Virus record (IMG/VR): IMGVR_UViG_3300002144_000620
Coordinates: 32,001-96,000 of that record
Length of the DNA: 64,000 nucleotides
Source of the DNA: a virus
Strand: one strand, 5' to 3'
The first letter of the stretch is position 1, and each line of letters starts with the position of its first letter. Under the pieces are notes generated by a model that did no database searches, was not told where the DNA came from, and saw only the letters and a list, made by a program, of their open reading frames with translations. Made by a program: the position numbers and the translations under genes. Positions 13,092 to 50,212 of the stretch are shown here, one piece after another.

Positions 13092-16000
13092 TTAAACTGG
13101 AATTTCTTCATTGAACCCAGGTATTTTAAACACAATATTATCATCAAACCAATAATCTGGGTTATATGACATTTTAGCCCAGAATTCTTTTTCCATAGGG
13201 GATGGTGTGTAGAACTCTATTAAAGTATCTTGATCACCTATATCATTTGGTTGGTTATTAACTAAATTCAATTCTGATTTAAGATACATTTTCTTATCTT
13301 CTGGCTTTGTAATTAATATACCATCTCTAATATCAATTGGGTAAGACACTAATAAAGGTCTAATTTTTTTATTAAACGCATCTAAGTATTTCGGTACATT
13401 ATATTCACCTATGTAGTCTGGTTGATTTTCAATTATATCCATAGGTACTAGAGACGCATACATGTTTCCGTTTTTATCCTCCTGAGCATCACCATGTGAT
13501 TTTGTTTTACCGTTATTAACGTAATATATTGTATCACCTAAATTAATATTTAAATTATTTAAAACAGCTAATTCCATATGAGCTTGTTTTGGTAATTGTC
13601 TACCATTTTTATCAACACCCCTATTTTTATAATCACTGATACCCTTTTTAACTCTGGATTTAGTTGCTATTTTAGCTAAAGGTATTTCTTTATTATATAT
13701 CTTTTCAGCGTATTCATGGTAGTATTTAACGAAATCATAACCTTTACCCTCTAATAACATCTTTATCCCTTTATTAAGAAATTCTTCGATATATAAAGGT
13801 AATTTTTTTGACTTAATACTGTTACCAGTCAAACTAATATTACCATCGTATTCGAGTAGTGCGTAATTTTTTCTAGATAAATTAATTGTGGATGGCCATA
13901 CACCATCTAAACCTAACCCCATCTCGTTTCGCATATATAGGTCGTTAAATTCAGCCACCACAGCTTCTACACCAGTATATATCTTACCAGCTGTAACTTC
14001 ATCATTTAAACCTTTACCAACATATGTAAATGGTTCACCATCTTCTGGTGCTGTAAAGTTAACACCGTCAGTATCTAATACTGATGGTTCGTAACCTTTC
14101 TTTATAAAGAAATTAACCAGTAGTCTAAGATATTGTCTAGCTGTACACGTTATTTGTTCACTAACATCTATCTCAGCCCATTGAAACGCCATGGGGGCAC
14201 CAAGGGCACCAAACATTGAGTTAATAAATATCTTAAGCGGTAACTGTTTACGCTTATATTTATCGGCTAACTGATAATTCCCATCTTTTTTGTATTTACT
14301 AGCTAAGTTTTTAGCGTTAAATCGTTCGGTATGGAAGTATTTTAACATCGACTTCATAGCCCCATTTATATCGGCAGTGGGAAAAATATCATGCGCTAAT
14401 TGAATTGCTGGATAAAGTGAGTTGTAATCCATCTTTCTTAATTCCTCTGAATAACCAACTTTAAATAATCTAGATAAACCACCTGTAAAATCACGTCTAC
14501 CTTCTGGTACTGGAATAGCTAAATTATTTTCAAATGAATATGCCATCATTAGTAGTTTCCATAAACCAGCTGTACCCATTGTTGATACTCTTTGATAGGT
14601 TGTTGGTACTAATTTAGCTAGTAAAAATGAAGATTGGTTATAAACTTCGTCAACTTCCATAGTTTCCCATAAGTCGTCAATAAGGTATCTTTCAACAATA
14701 TATTTGCCGTCAACCTCTTCTATTGTGTCTATGTAAGCACGTAAAGCTTTAAGTGTCTGAATTAAAAAAGCATATGTTTTTGGTGCTCTAATTTGTAATT
14801 GGGATGAATCGTTACCGATACCACTTTTAGGAAAAATAATTCTTTTACCTTTATTGATATGGTGTATTATATTTTTTATACCTTGGTTAATGATAACCTT
14901 ATTATCATCAAGTTCTAGATCATTAAAAAATGAATCGTCAGTGGTTTCTGATTTTTTCTTTGTTATAATACCGATAGCGTTTGTTTCACCACGCATTTCT
15001 TTAGATTGTTCACCGTAACCACTCATTAATACATTGTCACTATAAACAAATATATCATTAGGGTTTGACTTAACGTATTCACGGGTTATGTTGTCAATAA
15101 ATTCGATTGAAGGTTTTGTTTTAGTGAAACCACCAGTTCTGTTATTGAAATAGAACTTTTCTTCAGAATACCAAGTGTTTCCAATTTTATCACCATCGAT
15201 ATAAACACGATTACTTTTATTAATTTTGTTGTATTTACAAACATACTTAAGACCAACAGACTTCATACTAGAATCAATTGCTTGTGCACGTCTAGCAGAA
15301 TGCATTATATCGATGATGCTGTAACCAAACATATTTGTTTGTTCATAGTTCTCAACCTCATTACCTAGTTTAAGCATACCAGATTTATTGTTAATTAATT
15401 CACCAACTTTAAGTGTTATAGCTATCTTTTGTATATCTAAACCCAATATTTCACACCTCTTAAAAAAGAATGGCCAGTCGAAATTAGAGCTATTGTATCC
15501 AGCGATAATAGCGGGTTTTATATCATTAATTTTATCAAAGAATTTAATGATACCTTGTCTTTCGGATTCATCATCATCTTCTATAGGTATAATTTCTTCA
15601 ATACCTTGATTGGTGTATATACCTATCATGAATATTCTACTAACTTTAGGGTCTAAGCCAGTTGTCTCTAAATCGAATACCATTTTATGTATTTCTGAGT
15701 ATTCATCGAACCCTTTGAATAAACGTTTACCTGTATGTATTAAATATTGTTCAACAGGTGATACCATTAAGAAATGGTTATTAATATCACTTCTTTTATC
15801 GTAAATGTAGATCCCACCATCTTTAAAAAATTGTAACATTCTTTGATGACCTTGATTACAAGTAACTAAGTACTTATACCCATCAATTAATTTAGGGTGA
15901 TTACCGTTTTCTAGAGACTTTATTTCGATACCAAATTTTTCTCTAGCTGATTTTATCTTGGCATGACTATTACCGTAAAAATTAACAATTTCTTTAACCT

Positions 16001-16193
16001 TATTAAGGTTTTTTATCCACATAAAAGCTAATAGCGGTTCTTTCTCAATATATAAACCTTTTTCTGGATCTTGTTTTATCTTATGGATAAGATTTGTATC
16101 ACGATCATACTCTATATTTACTATATATTTCTCATCATCATGTCCATTCAAAAACTTCTCTATTTCGTCTAAAGGTATTTTATACTCAGCCAT
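13092..16193 (-). CDS. polB: Family B DNA polymerase with an inserted domain in the 3'-5' exonuclease
   Basis: ExoI FDLETTG, ExoII GYNSSNFDW, ExoIII YLIDD; motif A DYNSLYP, B KIFINSMFG, C DTDG. True start likely ATG 16193 (MAEYK), because the track's TTG at 16214 lies within the -7 box. Confidence 0.95.
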   Translation of the reverse strand: MAEYKIPLDEIEKFLNGHDDEKYIVNIEYDRDTNLIHKIKQDPEKGLYIEKEPLLAFMWIKNLNKVKEIVNFYGNSHAKIKSAREKFGIEIKSLENGNHPKLIDGYKYLVTCNQGHQRMLQFFKDGGIYIYDKRSDINNHFLMVSPVEQYLIHTGKRLFKGFDEYSEIHKMVFDLETTGLDPKVSRIFMIGIYTNQGIEEIIPIEDDDESERQGIIKFFDKINDIKPAIIAGYNSSNFDWPFFFKRCEILGLDIQKIAITLKVGELINNKSGMLKLGNEVENYEQTNMFGYSIIDIMHSARRAQAIDSSMKSVGLKYVCKYNKINKSNRVYIDGDKIGNTWYSEEKFYFNNRTGGFTKTKPSIEFIDNITREYVKSNPNDIFVYSDNVLMSGYGEQSKEMRGETNAIGIITKKKSETTDDSFFNDLELDDNKVIINQGIKNIIHHINKGKRIIFPKSGIGNDSSQLQIRAPKTYAFLIQTLKALRAYIDTIEEVDGKYIVERYLIDDLWETMEVDEVYNQSSFLLAKLVPTTYQRVSTMGTAGLWKLLMMAYSFENNLAIPVPEGRRDFTGGLSRLFKVGYSEELRKMDYNSLYPAIQLAHDIFPTADINGAMKSMLKYFHTERFNAKNLASKYKKDGNYQLADKYKRKQLPLKIFINSMFGALGAPMAFQWAEIDVSEQITCTARQYLRLLVNFFIKKGYEPSVLDTDGVNFTAPEDGEPFTYVGKGLNDEVTAGKIYTGVEAVVAEFNDLYMRNEMGLGLDGVWPSTINLSRKNYALLEYDGNISLTGNSIKSKKLPLYIEEFLNKGIKMLLEGKGYDFVKYYHEYAEKIYNKEIPLAKIATKSRVKKGISDYKNRGVDKNGRQLPKQAHMELAVLNNLNINLGDTIYYVNNGKTKSHGDAQEDKNGNMYASLVPMDIIENQPDYIGEYNVPKYLDAFNKKIRPLLVSYPIDIRDGILITKPEDKKMYLKSELNLVNNQPNDIGDQDTLIEFYTPSPMEKEFWAKMSYNPDYWFDDNIVFKIPGFNEEIPV

Positions 16194-16211
16194 TATATTG
16201 TTTATTTTGGA

Positions 16212-16243
16212 CAAATATAGTATAAGCTTAGTTAAAAAACAAA
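16212..16243 (-). promoter_or_regulatory. Bacteroidota-type promoter for the DNA polymerase
   Basis: TTTG (16243-16240), 20 nt, TATATTTG (16219-16212). Confidence 0.75.
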
Positions 16244-16261: not shown

Positions 16262-16663
16262 TTAAACTATGTCGGTTTTTACAAATGAATCTAGTACGTG
16301 AATGTACAGTTGTTCTTGTATTGGTGCTATTAATTCACCGTATACAGAAGTTGGGTCAGCTAAATTAAATAGCGTGATTTTAAACTCACCTAAAAAAATA
16401 CCAGGTTTGTTTGTGTCATTTTTTGTGAATTGGTATGTTATGATATAATTTTTATCAGAAGTATCCTCACATGGTTTTTCTAAAACAATATTTGCTTCTT
16501 TATTAGCTACTTTATATACACCAGTTTTCTCATCCTTCATAGCAAATGTTACCACTGCATTTTCGAGTAATTCCTCAAAGTGTCTAAAGTCGTTACGACC
16601 ATCCCTAAAAACTTTCATTTTTAAAATAGGTAATGTTGAATTTTGTCTTATACTGAATATCAT
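16262..16663 (-). CDS. BppU N-terminal-like virion structural protein
   Basis: FSIRQNSTLPIL..TFAMKD..YQFTKNDTNKPGIFLGEFKI pattern. Confidence 0.6.
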   Translation of the reverse strand: MIFSIRQNSTLPILKMKVFRDGRNDFRHFEELLENAVVTFAMKDEKTGVYKVANKEANIVLEKPCEDTSDKNYIITYQFTKNDTNKPGIFLGEFKITLFNLADPTSVYGELIAPIQEQLYIHVLDSFVKTDIV

Positions 16664-18195
16664 TAGAATAATTTATTTATAAATATCTTTCTTCCACCTT
16701 TTATCGTTTTCAAATTGTATTTAGTGGTTATGTTTTTAATAATATCTTTAATTTCCATCGTATATAGAGGTGTACATAGCATTTGAAAATCTTTAACACC
16801 ACCTAGAAAAGTGCCTGTAAAGAATTTATCTAATATAGTATCTATTTGTTTAGTGTTATCTAAATATAACGCCTCATTTAGGTTTTGAGTACCACCTCCG
16901 TATGATAAGTTATAAGGTACACCTTCTTGATAAACATCTTCAGTATCTAAACCGTGCGTTATTAATTCAATGAAATCGGTATTCCTTAAAACTAGAAATC
17001 CGTTTATGTATATCGAAAAATTACCCTTTTTATACTCACCATATTTAAGTTCACAAGCATCATTATAAGGGAAATCACGTTCAAAAACACAACTAATATG
17101 CATAAATTTCTCTTCATTTACATCTATCATGGGTTTTTTTGTGTAACACTCTTCTATAGTGAAATATTTTGTAACTATTAAACTAGTAGTGTGGTTTTTA
17201 CACGGATTATCTGGTTGTAGTACAAATGATTCGTTTGTTACACCTGAAACTTCTTGTGTTTCGCCTGTGTAACATATGTCGGTTGGGTATATTGTTCTAT
17301 AACCAATTCTACCGTCTGGTGTAATTCTTACACCTATTGAATTATAATATAAGTCAACGTATTCTTGCTTATATTTTAATTTTTTAGACTCTTCGGTATA
17401 TTTTTTACCAGTGTACATTGACCCATCATGGTAGTTATAGTAACCGATGTATTTATTAATACCATCTAATGTTATTAGATCGCTGTATGTATATATGTTT
17501 GCACCTTCTTTAGGTGCTATACCGTAACCATCGTTTAGTTTCTGAATTTCTATATCTGTTAAATCAGTAAATTTATTTTCAGCTCTAGTACCCATGTAAA
17601 ATATAAAACCTGTATTACCAGAGTAATCATCGTTTAATATATTTTTAGTCGCACCAGTTATATTTGTATACATCGGGAAATGTATTACCATGTTTGATGT
17701 CCACCCTAATCTAACTCTAGATGGAAACCATTCTACTGGTTGATTCTCAACTTTATAAAACCCTTGATAGAAACCACCGTTTAGTTGGTTATAATATTCA
17801 TTGTTATAAATCTCATTTGTATTGATATCGTAACCGTATAGACCAGTGTATCCAGAAACTGAATGGAAACAAAAGGTATCACCACTTTCGATAACATATG
17901 TTAAGGTTGGGTCGACCAATATTTCATTACCATTTTTAGTTTTAGTCGATACTGGGTTGTTTATACCGTTAAATATAGTATTATCGTTAGGTATAAAAGT
18001 ATTATCATAACCAGTTAAACTTATATTTTTAAGATATATATCATCACCACTATAAGCGTTTTTGATAGAACATAGATTATTGGTGATATCAATGTTAATT
18101 AAATCGCATTCACTATAGTCACGGTAAAAATCACGACAATCTTTACTTACGATTAAATCAAAATAATCACTTTTATCTAGTTCGTTATAAAACAT
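16663..18195 (-). CDS. Probable virion structural protein (beta-rich, ConA/LamG-like C-terminus)
   Basis: Lies between the neck and BppU-like genes; HISCVF..FSIYINGFLV..FLGGVKDF. Confidence 0.55.
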   Translation of the reverse strand: MFYNELDKSDYFDLIVSKDCRDFYRDYSECDLINIDITNNLCSIKNAYSGDDIYLKNISLTGYDNTFIPNDNTIFNGINNPVSTKTKNGNEILVDPTLTYVIESGDTFCFHSVSGYTGLYGYDINTNEIYNNEYYNQLNGGFYQGFYKVENQPVEWFPSRVRLGWTSNMVIHFPMYTNITGATKNILNDDYSGNTGFIFYMGTRAENKFTDLTDIEIQKLNDGYGIAPKEGANIYTYSDLITLDGINKYIGYYNYHDGSMYTGKKYTEESKKLKYKQEYVDLYYNSIGVRITPDGRIGYRTIYPTDICYTGETQEVSGVTNESFVLQPDNPCKNHTTSLIVTKYFTIEECYTKKPMIDVNEEKFMHISCVFERDFPYNDACELKYGEYKKGNFSIYINGFLVLRNTDFIELITHGLDTEDVYQEGVPYNLSYGGGTQNLNEALYLDNTKQIDTILDKFFTGTFLGGVKDFQMLCTPLYTMEIKDIIKNITTKYNLKTIKGGRKIFINKLF

Positions 18196-19286
18196 TATAT
18201 TATTTTAATTGGTACTGGGAAGGCTCTATATTTAAGCGCTTTATTAATTTCTTCGGCTTCAGATGACATTCTTTTTAACATTTCTAATGGGTTAAATCTA
18301 ATCATTCTATCCTCTAACTCTTTTTTAAGTGTAACCATTTCATCTTTACCTTCTGATAATAACGATTGATATTCCATTTCCATCGCAGCGTCTGGTACTG
18401 GTATTTTACCACCAAAAGTACCTCTTACTCTTCCTAAAGTCTCTTTACATAAAGCAACAAAATATCTTCTAATCCATATTTTAGCTGGGTCATTTAAATC
18501 ATCGAAATCAATGTTATCCAAAGGTACGTCCATTGGTGACTTAATAATGTCTTTATTTTTAGCTAAACAATCATCTTTTGTTTCTGGATTAATATCGTAA
18601 TACCAATACCAGCATTTACCAGCATCCATCATTGAACCTCTAAAATCAAATCTACCTCCAGGTGTGTTCATTAAGTGAACGTATTTTTTGCCGTCAGGTG
18701 CGTTTGTTATTTTATAAATTAATTCTGAACGAATCATTCTATTTTTAAGATTTCTATCCGTTGTTCTCATTAAAATATCAAAAGCTGGTAGTATGTAATA
18801 ACTACCTAAACCCATATATTCAGCACCAAATTGGTTATTCCATACACCTAAAAAGGGATCTATGACAGATTGGTCTAATGAAGCTGGTGTAAACCATAAA
18901 ACTTCATTTATTTCTCTATTAGCTGGTAATTCGTACATCTGCTGACCTTTAGATAATTCGAAGTAATCTTTTTTCATTACATAACCCCCTTCACCAGCAC
19001 CTAACCCAACTATTTTTGAGTAAGAGTATGTGTATTGTGTAACTAAGTCAAATGTTCTGTATAAAAAAGCTCTTGTTAGATCAGCTTCATTAACATTTAA
19101 ACCAACTAAGCTAGGCCATTGATGTTCAATTAACCAGTTATGGATAAATTCAACATAATCTTCTGTAGCTAGTTCCAGTAGTGAATCTAATTGCTCATTT
19201 TCTAATTGGATTTTTCTAATTGGAGCACCAAGCCTGTGTTTGGCTTGTTTGTAAATTTTTTCTTTTTCAACTGGGTTTATTCTCAT
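18195..19286 (-). CDS. Neck protein / head-tail adaptor (T4 gp13-like)
   Basis: N-terminal HRLGAPIRKIQLENEQLD; WIRRYFVALCKETLGRVRG.F..IPVP. Confidence 0.8.
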   Translation of the reverse strand: MRINPVEKEKIYKQAKHRLGAPIRKIQLENEQLDSLLELATEDYVEFIHNWLIEHQWPSLVGLNVNEADLTRAFLYRTFDLVTQYTYSYSKIVGLGAGEGGYVMKKDYFELSKGQQMYELPANREINEVLWFTPASLDQSVIDPFLGVWNNQFGAEYMGLGSYYILPAFDILMRTTDRNLKNRMIRSELIYKITNAPDGKKYVHLMNTPGGRFDFRGSMMDAGKCWYWYYDINPETKDDCLAKNKDIIKSPMDVPLDNIDFDDLNDPAKIWIRRYFVALCKETLGRVRGTFGGKIPVPDAAMEMEYQSLLSEGKDEMVTLKKELEDRMIRFNPLEMLKRMSSEAEEINKALKYRAFPVPIKII

Positions 19287-22732: not shown

Positions 22733-23899
22733 ATGAGTAATAATAGTATAGAAGAATCTTTAAATAGATTAAAAGAATTATATAGTTATAGATTAAATGA
22801 ATCTAATAACATTAACGAGGTTGATTGGGATAATCAGTTTAGTGATGTTAAGAAAACTTGTATGGCACCAGAAGTGGTTGTTAAAATGCTTAATGATCAA
22901 TTAACCAGATTAAACTCTGACGGTGATAGAGCAAAGATAGATGCGAATACACCTATATTTAGTAGAGGTAATATACCTCTCAAGGATGGTGATGTTGATG
23001 TTGAACACTTTATTAAAGAAATTACCGCTAAACCTAAAATGATTTTCGATAGGAACCCTAAGATGGAAAAGGGTGATCAAGGTGGTTTACAGTACACTGT
23101 TAACACTGGTTTACCAGCTTTAAGGAGTATATTGTATGATAAAGAGGGTAATGAGTTTTATACCATAAACACTTGTCCTGGGGCTGGCGCTTGTGCTGTA
23201 AATTGTTATGCTAGAAAAGGTTTTTATATCATGAATGACGGTAAAAACTTAAAATATACACAAAGATTAAATTTATTACTTAATGATCCTGAAGAGTATG
23301 AAAATATTATTATGGACGAATTGGATCCTTTGGCTTATAAAATTAAAAGAGAATCTAGGGGGTTAGGTGAAGATATAAAATTAGTAATAAGATGGAATGA
23401 TGCTGGTGATTTCTTTGCTAAGAAGTATTATGATATAGCTAGAAGTGTAACGAGTCAATTAATTAAGGCTGGATTTAATGTTGAATCCTATGCTTATACA
23501 AAAATGGGTGATATAGCTAATATTGCTGATGACAATTTTATAATGAATTTTTCTGATGACGCTAATAAAAGAGAAACTGAAAAGGTTGATACGGATTCAG
23601 TTAAAGTTTCTAAAATAGTACCAAAGAGTTTGTTTAAAGATATCTTTATTAAAAAGGGACCGCATTATGTTAAAGATGAAAAAGGTAAAGCTACGTTTAA
23701 AGATGGTGGTGACCAAGAATTAAAAAGATTGGTAAGTTCTGAGTATAACGTACCTTACGACTCATTAGTTTATACTAGCGAATTACCATCAACACAGGGT
23801 GAACCATTAAAGTATAACGTCATTGTTTTACCAACTGGTGATAGTGATGTTGGTGCACAAAGAAGGGATGTAAAAATTAGTTTTCTTTGTGAACACTAA
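22733..23899 (+). CDS. Gp88-like (radical-SAM-related) Fe-S protein with an N-terminal extension
   Basis: TCPGAGACAVNCYARKG (Cx5Cx3C), IRWNDAGDF, YAYTK. Confidence 0.75.
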   Translation: MSNNSIEESLNRLKELYSYRLNESNNINEVDWDNQFSDVKKTCMAPEVVVKMLNDQLTRLNSDGDRAKIDANTPIFSRGNIPLKDGDVDVEHFIKEITAKPKMIFDRNPKMEKGDQGGLQYTVNTGLPALRSILYDKEGNEFYTINTCPGAGACAVNCYARKGFYIMNDGKNLKYTQRLNLLLNDPEEYENIIMDELDPLAYKIKRESRGLGEDIKLVIRWNDAGDFFAKKYYDIARSVTSQLIKAGFNVESYAYTKMGDIANIADDNFIMNFSDDANKRETEKVDTDSVKVSKIVPKSLFKDIFIKKGPHYVKDEKGKATFKDGGDQELKRLVSSEYNVPYDSLVYTSELPSTQGEPLKYNVIVLPTGDSDVGAQRRDVKISFLCEH

Positions 23900-25674
23900 C
23901 GTTTTAAACTTTTAATAACTTCTTTACTAACCGATATATCATCTTCTTTAGGTGAATCACCCATTATTGTAGCTATAATTTTCATTTTAGCTTGTAGCGC
24001 TTTATACATTATAATATCTAGAGTATCCGTAAACAATGGGTAAATGATATGTACTTTATTTTGTTGTCCTATTCTGTGTGCTCTGTCTTCGGCCTGCATG
24101 TGATTAGCTGGTGTCCAATCTAAATCATTGAATATAACAACGCTACCTTCTGTTAGTGTTAAACCAACACCAGCAGCAACAATGTTACCTAAAAATACTT
24201 TAACGCTATCGTTATTCTGAAATCTTTCTACAGCATTTTGTCTATTTACACTTGAAACAGATCCATCTATAACAACAGCTTTACTACCAAAATGTGCTTG
24301 AAATTCTTTAATTGTGTTAGTAAAACAACTGAATATAATAACTTTTTGACCATTCTCAATCATTTCTTCAGCCATTTCAATCGTACTTTGTATTTTATCG
24401 TAAGATAGTAATTGTCTAACTTTTATTAATTTAGTTAGGTGATCAGTAATGCTAGGTTTTTCACCGTTAGATTCCATTTCACTTAACCAATCATTATATT
24501 CCTCCATATATGCGTTATAGCTTTTTGAGAATTCTAGTGGTAAGTAAACTGGTTTAATTGTTTTTTGTGGTAAATCAATAGAATCGCTTTTAGTTCTTCT
24601 TAATATAACATCGGATGAAAATTCATTTAATTCTTCTAGGTTAGATGAACCTGAGCATATCCAGAATTTTTTTGTTGTACCTTTTCTGTTTAACTGTTTA
24701 CCAGCGCAATATCTTTTAACGTAACCAACCCAGTTATCAGCAACTGGTGAATTACATAGGTAAAGTAAGTTGTAAAAATCTATAGGTTTATTTGTTATTG
24801 GTGTACCTGTAAGTAACCACCTTACTGGTATTTTCATAGCAAAATCATTAAATATCTTAGTTCTATTTGAGGCTGAGTTTTTTAAATAATGAGCTTCGTC
24901 AGCAATAACTAAATCAAATTTATAATAATCTATTGGTGATACTGGTAAATCTTCTGTATTAACACCTCTTCTAGGTAGGTGGTGAAAATTCTTTAAGATA
25001 TCGTAATTAACTATAGTCCATTTTTTAGCGGTAAAATTATTACCATCAACAATACTTACGTTGTCAACAGAATCGTAATTCGATATTTCAATTTTCCAAT
25101 TTAATTTTAAAGATGCTGGGCATACAATTAGAATTCTTTCAAAACCACCTTCAACAGCCGCTATTATTGCCGAAGTTGTTTTACCCAAACCCATTTCATC
25201 TGCTAAGATAAATTTGTCATTACTTAATAATTTTTTAATAGCAACAACTTGATGTGGTTTTGGGTCTCTTTCGTATTTAGTTGGATCTATTTCTGGTTCT
25301 GGTTTGTTAGCTTTTATACAGGACTTAGATAGGTAGAATGTATAAAATTTATCACAACCTTCCTCAAAGCAACCGTGAATATGTAACATATCATCTTTAC
25401 GACTTAATAATTTTTTTATGAAAACTTTATCGGGAAAGAAATCTAACTTTAATTGTTCAGTAACAAAATTCCTACATGACGCACTTATGTCAAATAATTT
25501 ATTAACAACAACTGGTTCAACATACCCATTTCTTAGAATGTAACTACATTGGTTTTTTGTTGGTATGAACCTTTTATTACGTGAGTATTCGTTTTTTATA
25601 TTTAGTATATGGTCGTTGGTGCCATTATAAACTTTAAGTATATCTAACGCTCTTTTTTCTATCGGTAATTGCAT
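23896..25674 (-). CDS. SNF2/SWI2-family helicase (SMARCAL1-like)
   Basis: LADEMGLGKT, VCPASLK.NW, DEAH, LTGTP, GVGLTLT, QAEDRAHRIGQ. Confidence 0.95.
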   Translation of the reverse strand: MQLPIEKRALDILKVYNGTNDHILNIKNEYSRNKRFIPTKNQCSYILRNGYVEPVVVNKLFDISASCRNFVTEQLKLDFFPDKVFIKKLLSRKDDMLHIHGCFEEGCDKFYTFYLSKSCIKANKPEPEIDPTKYERDPKPHQVVAIKKLLSNDKFILADEMGLGKTTSAIIAAVEGGFERILIVCPASLKLNWKIEISNYDSVDNVSIVDGNNFTAKKWTIVNYDILKNFHHLPRRGVNTEDLPVSPIDYYKFDLVIADEAHYLKNSASNRTKIFNDFAMKIPVRWLLTGTPITNKPIDFYNLLYLCNSPVADNWVGYVKRYCAGKQLNRKGTTKKFWICSGSSNLEELNEFSSDVILRRTKSDSIDLPQKTIKPVYLPLEFSKSYNAYMEEYNDWLSEMESNGEKPSITDHLTKLIKVRQLLSYDKIQSTIEMAEEMIENGQKVIIFSCFTNTIKEFQAHFGSKAVVIDGSVSSVNRQNAVERFQNNDSVKVFLGNIVAAGVGLTLTEGSVVIFNDLDWTPANHMQAEDRAHRIGQQNKVHIIYPLFTDTLDIIMYKALQAKMKIIATIMGDSPKEDDISVSKEVIKSLKR

Positions 25675-36184: not shown

Positions 36185-39100
36185 TAATGAATATAAAAAC
36201 AATTTCTTTTGTATTTATAGTTAAGGAATATATAGTAAATTTAATATATGGCACAAGGTGATTTTTTTAGTGATTTAAGTAATGCGGCTGATAAGTTAAA
36301 TCAAGCTGCTAAAGACGGTGTGATCAATAACTCAACCCAAGAGCAACAGATGGAACGTATGTTAGAAATGTACGAAGCTATAAACGCTAAAAAAGCCGCT
36401 GGATTCAAATGGGATTTAAAATCAGAAACAATTGGTGCTAACATCAGACGCTGGGGTAAAGGAATGGTTGATGACGCCAACAAGCTAAAAAAAGCTAAAA
36501 AGGGTTTAGTGATACAACAAAAAAGTATTAATAAACTTAATGATCTTGAGCTTAAATTAATAAAAGAGGGTAAAAAAGAAACTGCTGAGTTAGTAAAAAA
36601 GAAGAAAGAACAAGCTGTATTAGAAAAAGAAATATCTCAAGTTAATCTTAATGTTGCCAAAAGTGCTAGTAGTAAACTAGGTAGCGTTATGGCTGGCTTT
36701 AGTAACTTCGGTAAAAGCGCTATGAACCTTTTTAGTCCACTAAGTGGTATTTTTAGTTTTATATTAGGTACGGTTTTCTCAATAGGTAAATCACTATTCA
36801 ACATATTATTACCAATAGAAAAAGCATGGAAAATGTTTCTCGAAATGCAGAAAGCTGTTGGAGGCCTATCTGCTGATATTGGTTTAACCAATAAAGAGTA
36901 CATGGGTCTATTAAGTAGAATGCCTATGTTATATAGCGATATTGCTGGATATGGTGGTAAAATAGAAGATATAGCAACTATTATCGGTACTTTTAGTAAA
37001 AATACTGGTAAAAACCGATTATTCTCAAACGAAGAAATTGAAGGTATTGTTAAATTAGGTTATAGTACTGGACTAGGCGTTGATGGTGTAACCGAAATGG
37101 TTGGTGAATTTGATAACTTAGGTTATTCATTAGAACAAACAATGAAAACAGCTGACAAGGGTAGAAAACTTGCCGCTAAATTCAGTATTAATCAAACTAA
37201 GTTACTCAAAACAACAACAGATGTTGTTAAAAATTTAACAGGAACAGCCTTTGGTAGAAGTGTTGAAGATTTAACTAAATTATCAGCTAAAGCACAATCA
37301 TTAAGGTTTAATTTAGCTGAGTCAATTAAATCTTTTAAAGATTCGTTCTTTAGCCCAGAAAAAGCTATTGAGGCGGCAGCTAAAATACAGGTACTAGGTG
37401 GTGAAATGGCGCAACAATTTGGGGACCCTTTCTCATTAATGTATGATTCAATGAATAACGCTGATGGCATGGCCGAGAAATTGATTAATAGTGCTAAAAA
37501 TTTGGCTACAAAAAATAAAAACAATGAATTTATAATACCACCAGCACAAAGACAAATATTAAGAGAACAAGCTGAAGCCTTAGGTCAAAATTATGATGAG
37601 ATTGTTAATGCTGGTATAGAGCAAGCTAGAACAGCCGATAAGTTAATATCGTTAAGTAAAGCATCTGGTTCATTAACCAATTTTAATGATGATGACCAAC
37701 AAGCGTTAGCTAATCTAATGACATTAGGTAAAAACGGTTACGAGATTAAAATGCCTAACGGTATTAGTAAATTAGTTAGTACCATAACCAGCGAAGATCA
37801 ATTAAAAAACATATTATCAGCTAGACAAGCTAATGAAAATGCAGCGCAAGAAAGACTAAACTTATCTGAAAGATTCAGTATTGTATTGGATAGATTCGCA
37901 ATAGGTTTAACACCCTTATTCGTTGATTCCCAAAAAGATTATAAAGTTCAGAATATCGAGAAAGCTAATGATTTAATTTACCATAGTAGCGGTTCTATAG
38001 AAAAAGGCGCTAAAGGGGACGCTAAATCATATATAGATGAACTTGCTGGGGGTAAATCAAATAGTTACAGTAAAGCAAATAGTTTTAATCTAGTATTATC
38101 TGGTAAGATTATTAATAAATATAGAGAAGGTTTTTATGATAAAAACACTCACAATACCACCATAACTTCGTCTAAAATGGTATTAAAACAAATGATAGCT
38201 AATTTAGCTTAATAATGAATATAAAAACAATTTCTTTTGTATTTATAGTTAAGGAATATATAGTAAATTTAATATATGGCACAAGGTGATTTTTTTAGTG
38301 ATTTAAGTAATGCGGCTGATAAGTTAAATCAAGCTGCTAAAGACGGTGTGATCAATAACTCAACCCAAGAGCAACAGATGGAACGTATGTTAGAAATGTA
38401 CGAAGCTATAAACGCTAAAAAAGCCGCTGGATTCAAATGGGATTTAAAATCAGAAACAATTGGTGCTAACATCAGACGCTGGGGTAAAGGAATGGTTGAT
38501 GACGCCAACAAGCTAAAAAAAGCTAAAAAGGGTTTAGTGATACAACAAAAAAGTATTAATAAACTTAATGATCTTGAGCTTAAATTAATAAAAGAGGGTA
38601 AAAAAGAAACTGCTGAGTTAGTAAAAAAGAAGAAAGAACAAGCTGTATTAGAAAAAGAAATATCTCAAGTTAATCTTAATGTTGCCAAAAGTGCTAGTAG
38701 TAAACTAGGTAGCGTTATGGCTGGCTTTAGTAACTTCGGTAAAAGCGCTATGAACCTTTTTAGTCCACTAAGTGGTATTTTTAGTTTTATATTAGGTACG
38801 GTTTTCTCAATAGGTAAATCACTATTCAACATATTATTACCAATAGAAAAAGCATGGAAAATGTTTCTCGAAATGCAGAAAGCTGTTGGAGGCCTATCTG
38901 CTGATATTGGTTTAACCAATAAAGAGTACATGGGTCTATTAAGTAGAATGCCTATGTTATATAGCGATATTGCTGGATATGGTGGTAAAATAGAAGATAT
39001 AGCAACTATTATCGGTACTTTTAGTAAAAATACTGGTAAAAACCGATTATTCTCAAACGAAGAAATTGAAGGTATTGTTAAATTAGGTTATAGTACTGGA

Positions 39101-39952
39101 CTAGGTGTTGATGGTGTAACCGAAATGGTTGGTGAATTTGATAACTTAGGTTATTCATTAGAACAAACAATGAAAACAGCTGACAAGGGTAGAAAACTTG
39201 CCGCTAAATTCAGTATTAATCAAACTAAGTTACTCAAAACAACAACAGATGTTGTTAAAAATTTAACAGGAACAGCCTTTGGTAGAAGTGTTGAAGATTT
39301 AACTAAATTATCAGCTAAAGCACAATCATTAAGGTTTAATTTAGCTGAGTCAATTAAATCTTTTAAAGATTCGTTCTTTAGCCCAGAAAAAGCTATTGAG
39401 GCGGCAGCTAAAATACAGGTACTAGGTGGTGAAATGGCGCAACAATTTGGGGACCCTTTCTCATTAATGTATGATTCAATGAATAACGCTGATGGCATGG
39501 CCGAGAAATTGATTAATAGTGCTAAAAATTTGGCTACAAAAAATAAAAACAATGAATTTATAATACCACCAGCACAAAGACAAATATTAAGAGAACAAGC
39601 TGAAGCCTTAGGTCAAAATTATGATGAGATTGTTAATGCTGGTATAGAGCAAGCTAGAACAGCCGATAAGTTAATATCGTTAAGTAAAGCATCTGGTTCA
39701 TTAACCAATTTTAATGATGATGACCAACAAGCGTTAGCTAATCTAATGACATTAGGTAAAAACGGTTACGAGATTAAAATGCCTAACGGTATTAGTAAAT
39801 TAGTTAGTACCATAACCAGCGAAGATCAATTAAAAAACATATTATCAGCTAGACAAGCTAATGAAAATGCAGCGCAAGAAAGACTAAACTTATCTGAAAG
39901 ATTCAGTATTGTATTGGATAGATTCGCAATAGGTTTAACACCCTTATTCGTT
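35895..39952. repeat. 2,028-bp in-frame tandem duplication (35895-37924 matches 37923-39952)
   Basis: Constant offset of 2028; junction at TT (37923-37924); 9 substitutions found by eye, all synonymous. Confidence 0.97.
36248..38212 (+). CDS. Chimeric short tape-measure-like protein (TMP2 aa 1-559 plus the last 95 aa of TMP1)
   Basis: Identical to 38276..41077 up to LTPLFV, then DSQKDYK...IANLA identical to the end of 33536..36184. Confidence 0.8.
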   Translation: MAQGDFFSDLSNAADKLNQAAKDGVINNSTQEQQMERMLEMYEAINAKKAAGFKWDLKSETIGANIRRWGKGMVDDANKLKKAKKGLVIQQKSINKLNDLELKLIKEGKKETAELVKKKKEQAVLEKEISQVNLNVAKSASSKLGSVMAGFSNFGKSAMNLFSPLSGIFSFILGTVFSIGKSLFNILLPIEKAWKMFLEMQKAVGGLSADIGLTNKEYMGLLSRMPMLYSDIAGYGGKIEDIATIIGTFSKNTGKNRLFSNEEIEGIVKLGYSTGLGVDGVTEMVGEFDNLGYSLEQTMKTADKGRKLAAKFSINQTKLLKTTTDVVKNLTGTAFGRSVEDLTKLSAKAQSLRFNLAESIKSFKDSFFSPEKAIEAAAKIQVLGGEMAQQFGDPFSLMYDSMNNADGMAEKLINSAKNLATKNKNNEFIIPPAQRQILREQAEALGQNYDEIVNAGIEQARTADKLISLSKASGSLTNFNDDDQQALANLMTLGKNGYEIKMPNGISKLVSTITSEDQLKNILSARQANENAAQERLNLSERFSIVLDRFAIGLTPLFVDSQKDYKVQNIEKANDLIYHSSGSIEKGAKGDAKSYIDELAGGKSNSYSKANSFNLVLSGKIINKYREGFYDKNTHNTTITSSKMVLKQMIANLA

Positions 39953-41077
39953 AAATTAAATGAGTTTTTAGCTGATACAGGTACCCTACAAAAAATAGAG
40001 GATTTAGGTAGAGCAATATCAACACAAATGATACCATTTATTGAAGGTATTTTTACACCAGGAGGTACTGTTGATACGGGTTTAAGGTTTTTCTTAAACG
40101 ATTTTGATAAATTTTTAGTTGATGCTAAAAAAATGATGGATGGTAAGGGTGACTTCTTTACTAAAATAAAAGGTGTGTTTACAACAATGGTTAAATTTGT
40201 AGTGGACACAATATTACCATACGTACAGTATATATTTGGTAATATACTGACAGCAATGAAAGATATACCAGGTATTGGAGATGCTATGAATGTCGCTGGT
40301 CAACAACTTATAGCCAAATCATTCCAAGTTGGAAAAGATGCTGAAGGGAAACCAACTTACAATAAAGGTACTGTCGGAATGGCTGGAGGATCTACAGAAG
40401 CTAACAAACTAATAGATGTGGCTAAAAAAAATCTAACCGAATCAGAGAGTAGTAATAATTTTTTTACCAGAGCTGGTAGTTCAATTTTAAATTTACTTGA
40501 AGGTACAGCTAACAGTATAGTGGCTGGAGGTGGTGAGTATATGAATGCCGTTTACGGAACAGCCTTCGATACTGAAGGTGCTCAAAGCGCAGCTAGAATA
40601 GCATTGGAATTATCTGGAGCTCAAATTGTCGATGCTTTTGGTGGTGTTTTTTCTAAAGGTTTGGATAAAAATTCATTTGAGATGGACGCCAGAGATAGGA
40701 TGAGAGTTGACGAAGGGTATAATGCGTCAGCAGATGACCACCTTAAACACATAGGTGTTCAAGATGCTATGCTTTATTCCGATGGTAGATTAATTAAAGG
40801 TAGTAAAGGTGATGCTATTGCTTTTATAGACGAAATGGCTTACGGTAAAGCACATAGTCAATCTTCTAACAATAATTCATCAACAATGACTGTTAACGTA
40901 TCTGGTACTATCGAACACGATACACCTAATGGCACAAAAACTATAACAGCTAAACAATTATACGATTCAGATCCACAAATGTTTGGTGAGTTTATCTCAT
41001 CAACAATAGCTAAACGTGATTATGGTAGTGGTAATTATATCGTTGATTTTGGTGTAACACCTGTCAATGATATATGA
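38276..41077 (+). CDS. Tape-measure-like protein 2 (paralog of TMP1)
   Basis: Collinear motifs shared with TMP1 (DLKSETIG, KNRLFS, FGDPFSLM, KGSKGDA..IDE). Confidence 0.75.
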   Translation: MAQGDFFSDLSNAADKLNQAAKDGVINNSTQEQQMERMLEMYEAINAKKAAGFKWDLKSETIGANIRRWGKGMVDDANKLKKAKKGLVIQQKSINKLNDLELKLIKEGKKETAELVKKKKEQAVLEKEISQVNLNVAKSASSKLGSVMAGFSNFGKSAMNLFSPLSGIFSFILGTVFSIGKSLFNILLPIEKAWKMFLEMQKAVGGLSADIGLTNKEYMGLLSRMPMLYSDIAGYGGKIEDIATIIGTFSKNTGKNRLFSNEEIEGIVKLGYSTGLGVDGVTEMVGEFDNLGYSLEQTMKTADKGRKLAAKFSINQTKLLKTTTDVVKNLTGTAFGRSVEDLTKLSAKAQSLRFNLAESIKSFKDSFFSPEKAIEAAAKIQVLGGEMAQQFGDPFSLMYDSMNNADGMAEKLINSAKNLATKNKNNEFIIPPAQRQILREQAEALGQNYDEIVNAGIEQARTADKLISLSKASGSLTNFNDDDQQALANLMTLGKNGYEIKMPNGISKLVSTITSEDQLKNILSARQANENAAQERLNLSERFSIVLDRFAIGLTPLFVKLNEFLADTGTLQKIEDLGRAISTQMIPFIEGIFTPGGTVDTGLRFFLNDFDKFLVDAKKMMDGKGDFFTKIKGVFTTMVKFVVDTILPYVQYIFGNILTAMKDIPGIGDAMNVAGQQLIAKSFQVGKDAEGKPTYNKGTVGMAGGSTEANKLIDVAKKNLTESESSNNFFTRAGSSILNLLEGTANSIVAGGGEYMNAVYGTAFDTEGAQSAARIALELSGAQIVDAFGGVFSKGLDKNSFEMDARDRMRVDEGYNASADDHLKHIGVQDAMLYSDGRLIKGSKGDAIAFIDEMAYGKAHSQSSNNNSSTMTVNVSGTIEHDTPNGTKTITAKQLYDSDPQMFGEFISSTIAKRDYGSGNYIVDFGVTPVNDI

Positions 41078-41108: not shown

Positions 41109-44100
41109 ATGAGTCTTAATAGTATTTCAGAAGAATTCAGAAATGAAATTCTAAATTTAAACTTACAGTCACCACCTGACATTGTAACTGGTTTAGTTAA
41201 CTTAACTAATTCGGTAACAATTAATGCATACCTAAGTTCTTTAGGTCAATACGCTGTTATACACGATTATAAAGTACTTAATCCAGGTGATGTTGATACT
41301 GATGGTATACCAACAAGAAACGCTAATTTCAGTAGAACATTAAACACGCCAACTGATATATCAAATGGTTTAAGTGATTTAACCTCTAACCAGCAATATG
41401 TTGCTAATATAGTTAATAGTAAGGGTCAATTAACTGTTATAAATGATTACGCAAACACTAATCCTAGTGATGTTTTAACAGAAGCTGTAACACCTAGAAC
41501 AACCGATATATTAAAAAACTTAAATACACCAATAGATATTACAACAGGTCTAAATGACTTATCACCAAATGCCGCTATAGCGTCACAGTATTTATCTGGT
41601 AGAGGTTCGTTTAGTATTATAAACGATTTTAACGTAATTAATCCTGGTGACGTATTAACAGACGCTATAGCACCAAGAAATTTAGATATAGCAAAAAACT
41701 TAAACACACCAATAGATATCACAACAGGTATAAATGATTTATCACCAAATGGCACTATAGCATCACAATATTTATCAGGTAGAGGCTCATTTAGTATTAT
41801 AAACGATTTTAACGTAATTAATCCTGGTGATGTATTAACAGACGCTATAGCACCAAGAACATTAGATTTCTCTAGAAACCTAAATACACCAACAGACATA
41901 ACAGCTGGTGTAAACGATTTAACACCAAACACATTACTAGCGGCCCAATATTTATCAGGCAGAGGTTCATTTAGTGTTATAAACGATTTTATTGTTAATA
42001 ACCCTGGAGATGTATTAACAGACGCTGTAACACCAAGAACTTTAAACTTCTTACAAACACTTAATACACCTACCGATATAACAACAGGTGTAAATACACT
42101 AAGCGGTGCTTATGCCGCCCAATACTTATCTGGAAAAGGAGCGTTCACTGCTATAAACACATTTCCAAATGTTAATCCTGGTGATGTATTAACAGATGCA
42201 GTAACACCAAGAAATTTAAACTTTTCTCACGGACTAAATACACCAACCGACATCACAACAGGTATAAACACCTTAAGTGGTGCGTTTGCAGCACAATACT
42301 TATCTGGACGAGGAGCGTTTACAGTTATTAACGATTACATTAATACTAATCCAGGTGACGTTGTTAACGCAGCCACAGCACCTAGAGCATTAAACTTTTC
42401 ACATACTTTAAACACACCTTTAGATATAACAGTAGGTGTAAATACCTTAAGTGGTTCATTTGCAGCCCAATACTTATCAGGTAAAGGTTTAGGTACAGTA
42501 ATTAACGATTTCATTAATGTAAACCCTGGTGATACCGTAACGGACGCATTAGTACCCAGAACATTAAATTTAAATAAAAACCTTAATACACCTCTAGATA
42601 TCACAACAGGGTTACTTAACTTAAGTGGTTCATTTGCAGCACAATATTTAGCTGGTAGAGGTTTTGATACGATAGTAAATGATTTTAACGTAATTAATCC
42701 AGGTGATGTTGAAACAGAAGCCCTATTACCAAGAACGTTAAATTTAAGTATGACTCTAACAACACCTTTAGATATTACAACAGGTATAGGTACTTTAACA
42801 GCTAACGGTACTTTAACAGCACAATATTTAGCTGGTAGAGGTACACCAACAGTAATAAACGTTTTACCGAATGTAAATCCTGGTGATGTTCAAACTAATG
42901 CTGGACCATTGAGAATAAGTTTATTTTCTTTAAATCTGGTACCAGACCCTAATGACGCAACAGATTCATACACTTTAGCGAATCCAGGTACAGTAGCAAT
43001 CGGATCTGATACGATAATAAATAATTTTACTGTAAATAACCAAGAGGAATTAACACCTTTACAATTACAGTACTTAAATGCTAATTCTAAAAATCTATAC
43101 CAGCCAGAAAATCCAGTTGTTTACGATATATTAGCTGATTTAATATTAAATCAATCACCCAATACACAGCAAAATCCTTATGTAACTGAAGATATGTTAA
43201 AAAACGCTGACCCAACTCAATTGGTTTTAGCTGATTTCCTTAACTTACCAACAGCTTCAACACCTCTAAGCGTTTTACTCGGTACCGATTTAAATTTAGC
43301 TAATTTATTAACCGAACCTGGTATAAAAAATGATACTCTATTAGCTCAAATAGGTGCTTTAGAGCTCAAGTTTCATTTAGAAGCTAGGCTTGCCGCTAAA
43401 TTAGCTTCGGAGACCTTAGGTTGGACTACAATCGATGATATGTTAACTAACCCATTAAAGATAGCAGAAGCGCTTAAAAACCCATCTTCTGTCCTTGAAA
43501 GAGGTAATGCTGATATAACAACATTTAAAGGTGGTTTAGGTAAGTTAGCTAGTTTTATTTCTGACGTTAGCGGTTTAGGTGGTTTATCTTCCGCATTCTT
43601 TAAAGACGATTCAGTTTTATTAAAACCAACTGGAGTCGAAGATTATGATTCAGACCAAAAGTTAAGGAATAGAGATATCGATAGATTGGAAGAAACTGGT
43701 AAAGGTCAAAGATTCATGGCTTTTTCTAATTTAACGTTAAATAAATATATACCAGACTATGTCAGCCAATTAACAAACATTAGTGGTAGTAGAACATACA
43801 AAAGATTAAGAAAAGGACAAGGTGAAAACCATGAAGAAGACAAATCGTATTTAGGTAATGCCACCCAAAGAATATTCGACCTACTTACAGATGGGTCTGG
43901 TAATCAGGTTAAACCAACCGCTGAGATAACTAAACTTTTAATAGAAAATAACAAATATTCAGAACCTGGTGTTGAAAATGTATCATCATACGGATCGTTA
44001 CAAACATCTTTTATATGGCGAGGCACTACAGAAGAAAGATACTGGAACCCTTTAACAGGTGGATATACAAAAGATAACAAAAATGACGATAGAGCTACTT

Positions 44101-49888: not shown

Positions 49889-50212
49889 ATGCCTTTAAAT
49901 TATTTTAACAGATACAGAACATTAGATACTGAGGAAAAACATTCGTCAGCACCTTTTGTAAAATTAACGGAAAAATCATCTGATCAATTCACTGTATATA
50001 CAATAGGCAAATCTAGATTAGATAAAATAAGTCAACAATATTACTCAGCACCATATTATGGGTGGTTAATTTTAATGGCCAATCCAGATATCGCACCATC
50101 AGAATGGGAGATACCTGATAATACAACGATAAGAATACCTTTTCCTTTATCTGAAACATTAGGTGAGTACGAAACGAAATTACAAAATAGGGTAGATTAT
50201 TATGGCAATTAA
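49889..50212 (+). CDS. LysM / T4 gp53-like baseplate wedge protein
   Basis: RLDKISQQYYSAPYYGWLILMANP..IPDNTTIRIP. Confidence 0.8.
   Translation: MPLNYFNRYRTLDTEEKHSSAPFVKLTEKSSDQFTVYTIGKSRLDKISQQYYSAPYYGWLILMANPDIAPSEWEIPDNTTIRIPFPLSETLGEYETKLQNRVDYYGN

What the first reader, a model, noticed from the sequence alone, without database searches (positions are those of the whole stretch)
14742..15107. Macro-like domain inserted inside the proofreading exonuclease of the replicative DNA polymerase
Seen: between ExoII and ExoIII (YLIDD) lies a ~120-aa in-frame segment, ITREYVKSNPNDIFVYSDN..GYGEQSKEMRGETNAIGIITKK..FFND..IIFPKSGIGNDSSQLQIRAPKTYAFL. It has no intein termini (no N-terminal Cys/Ser paired with a C-terminal HN-C/S/T) and no homing-endonuclease motif. 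From memory it matches small stand-alone phage proteins (FGDN..G.GGQA..R.EPNA.GI.TK..P.DG.GTG.A.L...AP; DUF7831/macro-like, needs confirming), with the Gly-rich loops here partly degenerate. Known: macrodomains bind or remove ADP-ribose; DarT toxins ADP-ribosylate ssDNA to stall phage replication, and polymerase changes can give escape. Inference: a polymerase with a built-in reader or eraser of modified DNA at the fork (anti-DarTG), or an adaptation for copying the phage's own modified DNA.
Basis: partly seen in the sequence, partly recalled or inferred. Interest (0 to 1): 0.82.

Follow-up and report, generated by a model that had tools for sequence, protein, structure and literature searches.

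The report
Eroded macro-like domain inside phage polymerase
A large uncultured phage carries a complete extra domain of unknown function (DUF7831, shaped most like the enzymes that remove ADP-ribose marks) inside the proofreading part of its DNA polymerase. In this phage the domain's most conserved signature residues have decayed, so this copy is probably a retained scaffold and not a working eraser.

Summary
Residues 363-484 of the 1033-aa family B polymerase (window 14742-15107, minus strand) are a full-length Pfam DUF7831 domain (E 2e-34). It lies in frame between ExoII and ExoIII, is not an intein, and every polymerase and exonuclease motif is intact.

The domain is mobile. It occurs alone in phages and giant viruses, and in giant multi-domain phage proteins beside NADAR, AlkB-like and YpsA-SLOG domains. 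It is inserted at this one site in a large clade of uncultured-phage PolBs; a related clade has a 9-aa linker there.

New for this window: the copy is eroded. It keeps 25 of 34 family-consensus positions, the lowest of 54 domains, and lacks 6 of 19 near-invariant residues (GGQA to GEQS; GTGL to GNDS). Close relatives also lose K50, G46 or Q34. It is still under purifying selection (dN/dS 0.08, against 0.03 for the rest of the gene). Similar erosion arose about five times in this PolB family.

Function is untested. This scan already reported the canonical form on at least six other genomes.

The parts
13092..16193 (-). Family B DNA polymerase gene (1033 aa from the ATG at 16193; an in-frame TTG at 16214 lies 7 codons upstream)
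   Evidence: ORF list and translation. Pfam DNA_pol_B, DNA_pol_B_exo1 and RNase_H_2, and PHROG 262 DNA polymerase at E 2e-50. Homologues of 1033 aa start at the ATG. The full-length model has pLDDT 88.9 and pTM 0.78.
14742..15107 (-). Inserted DUF7831 domain (polymerase residues 363-484), an eroded variant
15660..15680 (-). ExoI motif (VFDLETT; Asp and Glu metal ligands)
   Evidence: Coordinates; D174 and E176 are invariant in 56 aligned PolBs.
15477..15497 (-). ExoII motif (YNSSNFD)
   Evidence: F238 and D239 are invariant.
14673..14687 (-). ExoIII motif (YLIDD), 18 residues after the end of the insert
   Evidence: Y503, L504, D506 and D507 are invariant. In the model the insert's last helix runs on into the strand and helix that carry ExoIII.
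14409..14429 (-). Polymerase motif A (DYNSLYP)
14208..14234 (-). Polymerase motif B (KIFINSMFG)
14067..14075 (-). Polymerase motif C (DTD)

Best explanation
A small mobile alpha/beta domain, Pfam DUF7831, was captured into a surface position of the PolB exonuclease domain just before the ExoIII helix, in an ancestor of a large clade of uncultured tailed phages. Its fold is most like a stripped-down TARG1/DarG-type macrodomain. In its canonical form the domain has a strict signature (FGDN, G-x-GGQA-x-E-x-RGEPN, TK, DG-x-GTGLA, RAP). It travels with NADAR, AlkB-like and SLOG domains in giant phage proteins, so it most likely binds or processes a nucleotide-type adduct on nucleic acid, such as ADP-ribose (inferred). 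In this window's lineage both Gly-rich loops have become polar or acidic, and sister phages lose further invariant residues. This copy has therefore most likely lost the ancestral ligand binding or catalysis. It persists under purifying selection as a folded part of the exonuclease domain, either as a scaffold or with a changed role. The polymerase itself is fully intact.
For: - **Domain identity:**
- **Clean insertion at one site:** there is a 9-aa linker in 13 related PolBs and none in the outgroups.
- **Mobility and partners:** 2337 representative clusters, many in proteins of 1500-6800 aa. Fusions occur to NADAR (P0271, P0168), AlkB-like 2OG oxygenase (P0145, L031), YpsA/cpYpsA SLOG (P0155, L059) and DUF488-N3a (P0155, P0178).
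- **Fold:** the model has pLDDT 94.7. Macrodomains fill 11 of the top 12 ranks of 48,161 chains, with 99-108 of 122 residues aligned.
- **Erosion:** 25/34 consensus positions are kept, the lowest of 54 domains. The changes are F22Y, G23S, G33E, A35S, P53S and G100D, plus P42T, T99N and L101S. Relatives with 82-95% identical polymerases (outside the insert) add D24E, Q34E, G40D, G46A/P/S and K50R, each in a different combination.
- **Canonical comparison:** canonical PolB inserts lose 0-2 of the 19 invariant residues.
- **Still selected:** dN/dS for window versus P0005 is 0.082 in the insert against 0.028 in the rest of the gene.
- **Faster change:** the insert diverges 2.05 times as fast as the rest of the protein in this subclade, against 1.49 times in canonical relatives of similar divergence.
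- **Repeated erosion:** about five lineages are affected. In the strongly eroded copies the N-terminal motif-bearing half is rewritten or deleted, while the long helix and C-terminal helix remain.
- **Polymerase intact:** all polymerase and exonuclease motifs are present.
Against: - No biochemical data exist for any DUF7831 protein.
- The window copy keeps every conserved polar residue (R9, D24, N25, Q34, R39, E41, N43, T49, K50, D63), so it could still be active with an altered pocket.
- A dN/dS of 0.08 shows function, not which function.
- The invariance figures rest partly on loci fetched through two motif patterns, which inflates the conservation of those motifs.
- I could not obtain model coordinates, so the position of the insert relative to the DNA path is unknown.
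Confidence: 0.5

Rival explanations
1. One reading: the insert is an active, polymerase-tethered eraser or reader of ADP-ribosylated DNA (anti-DarTG) that clears or senses adducts on the template at the fork.
For: The nearest folds include DarG and TARG1, which remove ADP-ribose from thymidine in ssDNA (the role of DarG K80 is given in PMC11543638). Phage macrodomain AdfM (PhiKZ gp104) counters DarT2 (PMC13309987). That paper also cites a report that DNA polymerase mutations let one phage escape DarTG2. DUF7831 is fused to NADAR, a known guanine-ADPr hydrolase family, in two proteins. The window copy keeps the conserved TK pair and all conserved polar residues and is under purifying selection.
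Against: Six of 19 invariant residues are lost here, with Glu and Asp introduced into the two Gly-rich loops. By analogy with macrodomains, where such loops hold the diphosphate and distal ribose (my knowledge, not tested here), this should hinder binding. Sister phages replace K50, G46 and Q34, which argues that the signature is no longer constrained in this subclade. No activity is known for any family member. The macro homology is unproven.
Confidence: 0.15
2. DUF7831 was never an enzyme. It is a nucleic-acid- or protein-binding module, and in the polymerase it serves as a docking or ssDNA-handling surface. The motif changes would then be tuning, not decay.
For: The domain is retained at full length with low dN/dS. 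Even in strongly eroded lineages its C-terminal half persists. It is fused to very different partners, including sigma-70 regions 3/4 and helicases.
Against: A signature of about 19 near-invariant residues rich in Gly, Asn, Gln, Arg, Glu and Lys, held across phages, giant viruses and giant proteins, is typical of a catalytic or small-ligand pocket. The partners are mostly enzymes that reverse nucleic-acid modifications.
Confidence: 0.15
3. The insert adapts the polymerase to copying the phage's own modified DNA.
For: The genome is rich in sugar-nucleotide and glycosyltransferase genes, and a dCTP deaminase/dUTPase-like gene lies nearby (earlier first-reader notes).
Against: The sugar genes read as a nonulosonic-acid and protein- or glycan-glycosylation set, not DNA-base modification. 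No DNA hypermodification gene was identified here. The same domain occurs alone and in virion-type giant proteins of unrelated phages. Related PolBs in the same family do without it.
Confidence: 0.07
4. The insert is a selfish element (intein or other spliced insertion) with no role in the mature enzyme.
For: The position is inside a conserved polymerase, where inteins are common. One relative (P0047, 1392 aa) does carry a true intein in addition to DUF7831.
Against: There is no Hint or homing-endonuclease domain and no splice-junction residues. The insert is homologous to free-standing proteins. It is predicted as a folded domain continuous with the ExoIII helix. Codon-level purifying selection is present.
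Confidence: 0.01

Closest known systems
Pfam DUF7831 (PF25176) / PHROG 2072: small stand-alone proteins of phages (Caulobacter phiCbK-like, Rhizobium, roseophages, cyanophages) and Mimiviridae, and modules of giant phage proteins
   Same: Full-length HMM match at E 2e-34. Same predicted fold: BFVD matches reach TM 0.90-0.94. About 35-41% identity to the phage proteins.
   Different: Here the domain is embedded in a polymerase instead of standing free, and it lacks 6 of the 19 residues that are near-invariant in the family. No member has a known function.
TARG1 / DarG / Poa1p-type macrodomains, and the phage anti-DarT2 macrodomain AdfM (PhiKZ gp104)
   Different: The domain is about 30-60 residues shorter and has fewer strands. 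There is no Pfam Macro hit, no Foldseek hit and no PDB profile hit. The E-x-RGEPN motif has no macro counterpart that I know of. The known proteins are free-standing or antitoxin-fused, not inside a polymerase. This copy has eroded loops.
Polyvalent / cassette-bearing giant phage proteins
   Same: DUF7831 is one of the swappable small domains in such proteins, beside NADAR, AlkB-like and SLOG domains.
   Different: The host protein here is the replicative polymerase and carries a single inserted domain at a fixed internal site. It is not a string of terminal effector domains. The 2017 paper's text does not mention the Macro, NADAR, AlkB or SLOG domains, so it probably does not describe this domain.
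Intein-bearing family B polymerases
   Same: An in-frame foreign segment sits inside a conserved PolB.
   Different: There is no Hint domain, no splice residues and no endonuclease. The segment is a retained, selected domain of the mature protein.

Membership tests
Pfam DUF7831 (PF25176) | HMM score above the gathering threshold over the full model | tested here: met
   118.5 bits against a cut-off of 27; model positions 2-117 of 118.
Pfam DUF7831 (PF25176) | Family signature residues (FGDN, GGQA, RGEPN, TK, P53, DG-x-GTGL, RAP) | tested here: not met
   Only 25/34 consensus columns and 13/19 near-invariant residues are kept. The losses are F22Y, G23S, G33E, A35S, P53S and G100D. It is a member by homology, but a signature-eroded one.
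Macrodomain superfamily | Sequence match to Macro profiles | tested here: not met
   No Pfam Macro hit at E up to 1. No PDB sequence-profile hit at E up to 10. hhalign against a 39-sequence Tk.4-type macro profile gives Prob 10%, P 0.003, over 32 columns only.
Macrodomain superfamily | Three-layer alpha/beta/alpha macro fold | tested here: inconclusive
Macrodomain superfamily | Gly-rich loops that hold the ADP-ribose diphosphate and distal ribose | tested here: inconclusive
   Canonical DUF7831 has two Gly-rich loops at collinear positions. In the window copy they read GEQS and GNDSS. Structural equivalence to the macro loops was not shown.
Macrodomain superfamily | Binding or hydrolysis of ADP-ribose derivatives | not testable with these tools
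   This needs biochemistry. No literature exists on DUF7831 or PF25176.
Anti-DarT factors (AdfM-type macro, AdfN-type NADAR) | Removal of DarT-installed ADP-ribose from ssDNA; rescue from DarT toxicity | not testable with these tools
   Only contextual hints exist: NADAR fusions of the family and the fold neighbours DarG and TARG1.
Family B DNA polymerase with 3'-5' exonuclease | ExoI, ExoII and ExoIII, and polymerase motifs A, B and C, intact | tested here: met
   All are present and invariant across 56 relatives.
Intein | Hint domain with an N-terminal Cys/Ser and a C-terminal His-Asn followed by Cys/Ser/Thr | tested here: not met
   No Hint, intein or LAGLIDADG hit, and the junctions lack these residues.

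The most novel reading that the evidence does not exclude
Canonical PolB-embedded DUF7831 is a new, minimal branch of the macrodomain fold. It works as a replisome-tethered eraser of a base adduct on template DNA, such as DarT-type ADP-ribose. Under this reading, this window and the four or so other eroded lineages are natural loss-of-function states: the counter-defence was dropped once it was no longer needed, but the domain could not be excised because it had become part of the exonuclease fold.
Probability: 0.2. Interest if true: 0.8.

Novelty: new variant of a known kind. Interest (0 to 1): 0.55.

Why it matters
No replicative polymerase is known to carry a built-in de-modification domain. 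Known phage answers to DNA ADP-ribosylation are separate proteins (AdfM, AdfN) or point mutations in the polymerase. If canonical DUF7831 removes adducts, this PolB clade would show repair or counter-defence chemistry fused directly to the replicase.

This window adds a natural series. Polymerases 76-77% identical carry an intact signature (P0012, P0013), this one and its near relatives carry an eroded one, other lineages keep only a relic, and a related clade has a 9-aa linker. That gives ready-made positive and negative constructs for assays. It is also an example of a captured enzyme domain turning into a structural part of its host protein. DUF7831 has more than 2,300 representative clusters across phages and giant viruses, and I found no paper that mentions it in the library searched.

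Tried and rejected
- **DNA similarity:** megablast of the gene against 50,697 phage records found no match.
- **Structure and sequence searches of the domain:** Foldseek against the PDB gave nothing below E 0.08, and the top rows were tyrosine phosphatases with TM 0.3-0.4, which I judged to be noise. A PDB sequence-profile search gave no hits at E up to 10. NCBIfam gave no hit for the insert or seven stand-alone members.
- **Feature search:** the ESM Atlas returned only sub-threshold leads, to the 'A1S_2505 family phage non-structural protein' (0.87-0.88) and to a viral cluster of which 11% carry Macro. I used these as leads only.
- **Profile-profile comparison:** hhalign against T4 Tk.4 alone and against a 39-sequence Tk.4-type macro profile aligned only the helix-strand-P-x-x-G-x-G segment.
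- **Literature:** 'DUF7831' and 'PF25176' gave zero papers. 'A1S_2505' gave nothing relevant. Three comparative-genomics papers from the Aravind group were checked: the polyvalent-protein and NAD/ADPr papers do not mention a polymerase-embedded Macro-like domain, and the jumbo-phage paper's polymerase passages mention no inserted domain.
- **Own genome record** (154 kb, about 52% complete): no second DUF7831, no Macro and no NADAR. The record is incomplete, so this does not show absence.
- **Gain versus loss:** the tree rooted with Salinibacter and Nostoc phage PolBs places the insert-less clade between two insert-bearing groups. Support is 0.85, on a root branch of 1.28 substitutions per site. 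I leave one gain versus gain plus loss open.
- **Position of the insert:** the tools return no coordinates, so I could not place the insert relative to the exonuclease site or the template path.
- **Neighbourhoods of stand-alone DUF7831 genes** in phiM9, CcrMagneto and Mwe-JY26: early-type regions near rIIA/B, helicase, dexA-like exonuclease and dCMP deaminase genes. This did not settle the function.
- **Intein and intron readings:** rejected.

Full report
**1. The observation**

The minus-strand ORF at 13092-16214 encodes a family B DNA polymerase. Homologues of 1033 aa begin at the ATG at 16193, so I number from there.
- Pfam finds DNA_pol_B, DNA_pol_B_exo1 and RNase_H_2.
- Between the exonuclease and polymerase hits it finds a full-length DUF7831 domain (PF25176). 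The score is E 1.1e-32 in context and 1.9e-34 for the excised 122 residues, covering model positions 2-117 of 118.
- PHROGs gives family 262 (DNA polymerase) and, for the insert, family 2072 (unknown function).
- The insert is residues 363-484, which is exactly the stated 14742-15107.
- ExoI (15660-15680), ExoII (15477-15497), ExoIII (14673-14687) and polymerase motifs A, B and C are present. Their key residues (D174, E176, F238, D239, Y503, D506, D507 and the polymerase motif residues) are invariant in 56 aligned relatives.
- There is no Hint, intein or homing-endonuclease signal and there are no splice-junction residues.

**2. What the insert is related to**

- tblastn finds 84 phage records with a free-standing homologue at about 35-41% identity. 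They are Caulobacter phiCbK-like phages, Rhizobium and Sinorhizobium phages, roseophages and cyanophages, and all the proteins are annotated as hypothetical.
- A profile search of 1.84 billion representatives finds 2337 clusters at E up to 1e-3. They split between proteins of 120-200 aa and giant proteins of 1500-6800 aa.
- In 80 viral loci the domain lies in PolBs (L001-L020, L022 and L023), in small ORFs, and in ORFs of 2000 to over 3800 aa.
- BFVD adds Mimiviridae and large crAss-like phage proteins.
- Pfam partners in fused proteins are NADAR (P0271, P0168), AlkB-like 2OG-Fe(II) oxygenase (P0145, L031), YpsA and circularly permuted YpsA SLOG (P0155, L059), and DUF488-N3a (P0155, P0178). 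Others are a PIF1/AAA_30 helicase (P0168), sigma-70 regions 3/4 (P0142) and DUF7666 (L051).
- This is the company of enzymes that reverse or sense nucleic-acid or nucleotide modifications. That is association, not proof.

**3. The fold**

- With a 54-sequence alignment, AlphaFold2 gives pLDDT 94.7 and pTM 0.86. The model has four main strands and five helices, including one long central helix.
- Foldseek finds nothing in the PDB; the best E is 0.08, to phosphatases.
- VIA-align against 48,161 PDB representatives ranks macrodomains in 11 of the top 12 places. The list includes 2afc, Poa1p, TARG1/C6orf130, M. tuberculosis DarG, PARP14, coronavirus, alphavirus and rubella macro domains, GDAP2 and PARP9.
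- At sequence level there is no Macro hit in Pfam and none in the PDB.
- Profile-profile alignment to T4 Tk.4-type macrodomains covers only the helix-strand-P-x-x-G-x-G part, at Prob 10% and P 0.003.
- The motif order is collinear between the two families: a strand ending in Asn, then a Gly-rich loop and helix; a strand ending in Thr-Lys (Thr-Gln in Tk.4); a long helix; then a strand, Pro, a Gly-rich loop and a helix. DUF7831 is about 35 residues shorter between the first helix and the Thr-Lys strand.
- DarG uses Lys80 for catalysis (PMC11543638). Whether DUF7831 K50 is its equivalent is my inference.

I rate 'macro-related fold' at about 0.6.

**4. Distribution within the polymerase family**

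- Among the best 120 homologues, those at 47% identity or more and 1015-1139 aa mostly carry PF25176. A block of 908-966-aa proteins does not.
- The alignments show one insertion site, between a conserved Y-F-x-x-x-T-G-x-Y segment and the strand before ExoIII. The short proteins have a 9-residue linker there (for example GSPGTENLM). The Salinibacter and Nostoc phage outgroups also have nothing there.
- The ingroup resolves into three well-supported groups: insert-less, the P0070 group, and the remaining insert-bearers. The root falls on a very long branch (support 0.85), so one gain versus gain plus clean loss is undecided.
- Either way, the polymerase functions without the domain in a related clade.

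**5. What is particular to this window**

I defined 34 columns that are at least 80% conserved, and 19 that are at least 98% conserved, in 52 other domains.
- The window copy keeps 25 of the 34, the lowest of all 54 domains; the others keep 29-34.
- It has lost six of the 19: F22Y, G23S, G33E, A35S, P53S and G100D. It also carries P42T, T99N and L101S.
- Both Gly-rich loops have become polar or acidic: GGQA to GEQS, and GTGL to GNDS.
- The four closest polymerases are 82-95% identical outside the insert. They share this core set and each adds different hits on invariant positions: G40D and G46A in P0005; D24E and G46P in P0007; D24E, Q34E and K50R in P0008; D24E, G46S and K50R in P0009.
- The sister group contains P0012 and P0013 with no invariant residue lost, P0010 with one lost, and P0015 and P0016 eroded independently.
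- Three further lineages (P0066-68, P0080/82, P0083) keep only 3-9 of the 34 positions. There the N-terminal, motif-bearing half is rewritten or partly deleted, while the long helix, last strand and C-terminal helix remain recognisable.

The domain is nevertheless not decaying freely.
- Nei-Gojobori dN/dS between the window and P0005 is 0.082 for the insert, against 0.028 for the rest of the gene. More distant pairs give 0.05-0.2, with dS near saturation.
- Amino-acid divergence of the insert is 2.05 times that of the rest in this subclade, against 1.49 times for canonical pairs of like divergence.
- In the full-length model (pLDDT 88.9) the insert keeps the same secondary structure. Its last helix runs on into the strand and helix that carry ExoIII.

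One caveat applies. The comparison loci were retrieved with two peptide patterns from the family's central motif, which inflates the apparent invariance of those residues. The Pfam model and the pattern-free profile search agree on the signature.

**6. Interpretation**

Shown:
- This is a real, selected, full-length DUF7831 domain inside an intact proofreading polymerase.
- The insertion is specific to a clade.
- The signature is eroded in this lineage, and erosion recurs in others.

Inferred:
- Canonical DUF7831 binds or processes a nucleotide-type adduct. This rests on its strict polar and Gly signature, its partners and its macro-like fold.
- The eroded copy has lost that activity and is kept because it has become part of the exonuclease domain's architecture, or has taken on another role.

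The supporting context is that phage AdfM, a macrodomain, removes DarT2 marks, and that polymerase mutations let one phage escape DarTG2 (PMC13309987). The idea is less likely for this copy.

I found nothing to support an adaptation to self-modified DNA. The nearby sugar genes read as glycan pathways.

**7. Context and prior notes**

- The window is bases 32001-96000 of a 153,961-bp IMG/VR record, estimated to be about 52% complete.
- It is a contractile-tailed phage: it has a tail sheath gene and a T4 gp13-like neck protein.
- The record holds no second DUF7831, no Macro and no NADAR.
- This scan has already followed up the same PolB-DUF7831 architecture on at least six other genomes, with the same 'macro-like, untested' verdict.
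- The contributions here are the erosion series, the selection measurements and the repeated independent decay.

**8. Verdict**

The architecture is, as far as I could find, not in the literature, and I class it as a new variant of a known kind: a macro-like de-modification module built into a replicase. The present copy is probably an inactive relic, which makes it the natural negative control and not the best candidate for the proposed activity.

Noticed in passing
P0047 (relative of the window PolB, 1392 aa): One PolB of the same clade carries a true intein (Pfam Intein_splicing plus LAGLIDADG_3) in addition to the DUF7831 insert. The two kinds of insertion therefore coexist and are distinguishable.
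   Followed up: no
P0080, P0082 (alignment A1 columns about 157-225 and 1010-1050): These PolBs have extra segments of about 40-70 aa in the N-terminal region and a 30-40 aa segment near the C-terminal thumb region. The P0033, P0067 and P0068 group shares a thumb-region insertion. This PolB family accepts several lineage-specific insertions.
   Followed up: no
window 41109-49880 (+), 50202-53033 (+), 53033-57877 (+), 38276-41077 (+): Four very large ORFs (2923, 943, 1614 and 933 aa) downstream of the tail sheath gene have no PHROG match at E 1e-6. They are presumably tail or baseplate or other virion proteins of an unfamiliar type.
   Followed up: partly
window 23896-25674 (-): A 592-aa helicase matches PHROG 62 (DNA helicase, E 1e-108), with weaker matches to large helicase-methyltransferase-type families. 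It sits between structural genes.
   Followed up: no
window 18195-19286 (-) and 16262-18195 (-): The polymerase gene is not in a replication module. Upstream lie a T4 gp13-like neck protein and two ORFs with no family (510 and 133 aa). Downstream lie five small unknown ORFs, a holin, a PfkB kinase and glycosyltransferases. The order is conserved in relatives L083-L085.
   Followed up: partly
P0124 (300 aa), P0142 (367 aa), L051:5995-6894, L021:895-2508: Unusual DUF7831 architectures: a tandem duplication (P0124), fusion to sigma-70 regions 3/4 (P0142), fusion to DUF7666 (L051), and a weak fusion to an MTPAP-like nucleotidyltransferase palm domain (L021).
   Followed up: no
BFVD hits A0A3G5ADK8, A0A6N1NMG5, A0A5K0U977: DUF7831 proteins with near-identical predicted fold (TM 0.90-0.92) occur in giant viruses of amoebae (Hyperionvirus, Tupanvirus, Yasminevirus). 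The domain therefore crosses the boundary between phages and eukaryotic viruses.
   Followed up: no
PMC7824862, section 3.4.8: A different uncharacterised domain, DUF4326, is described as fused to Macro, SLOG and NADAR on one side and to replication or restriction-modification components on the other, in jumbo phages and giant viruses. This parallels the DUF7831 pattern closely. Pfam did not report DUF4326 on the insert.
   Followed up: partly
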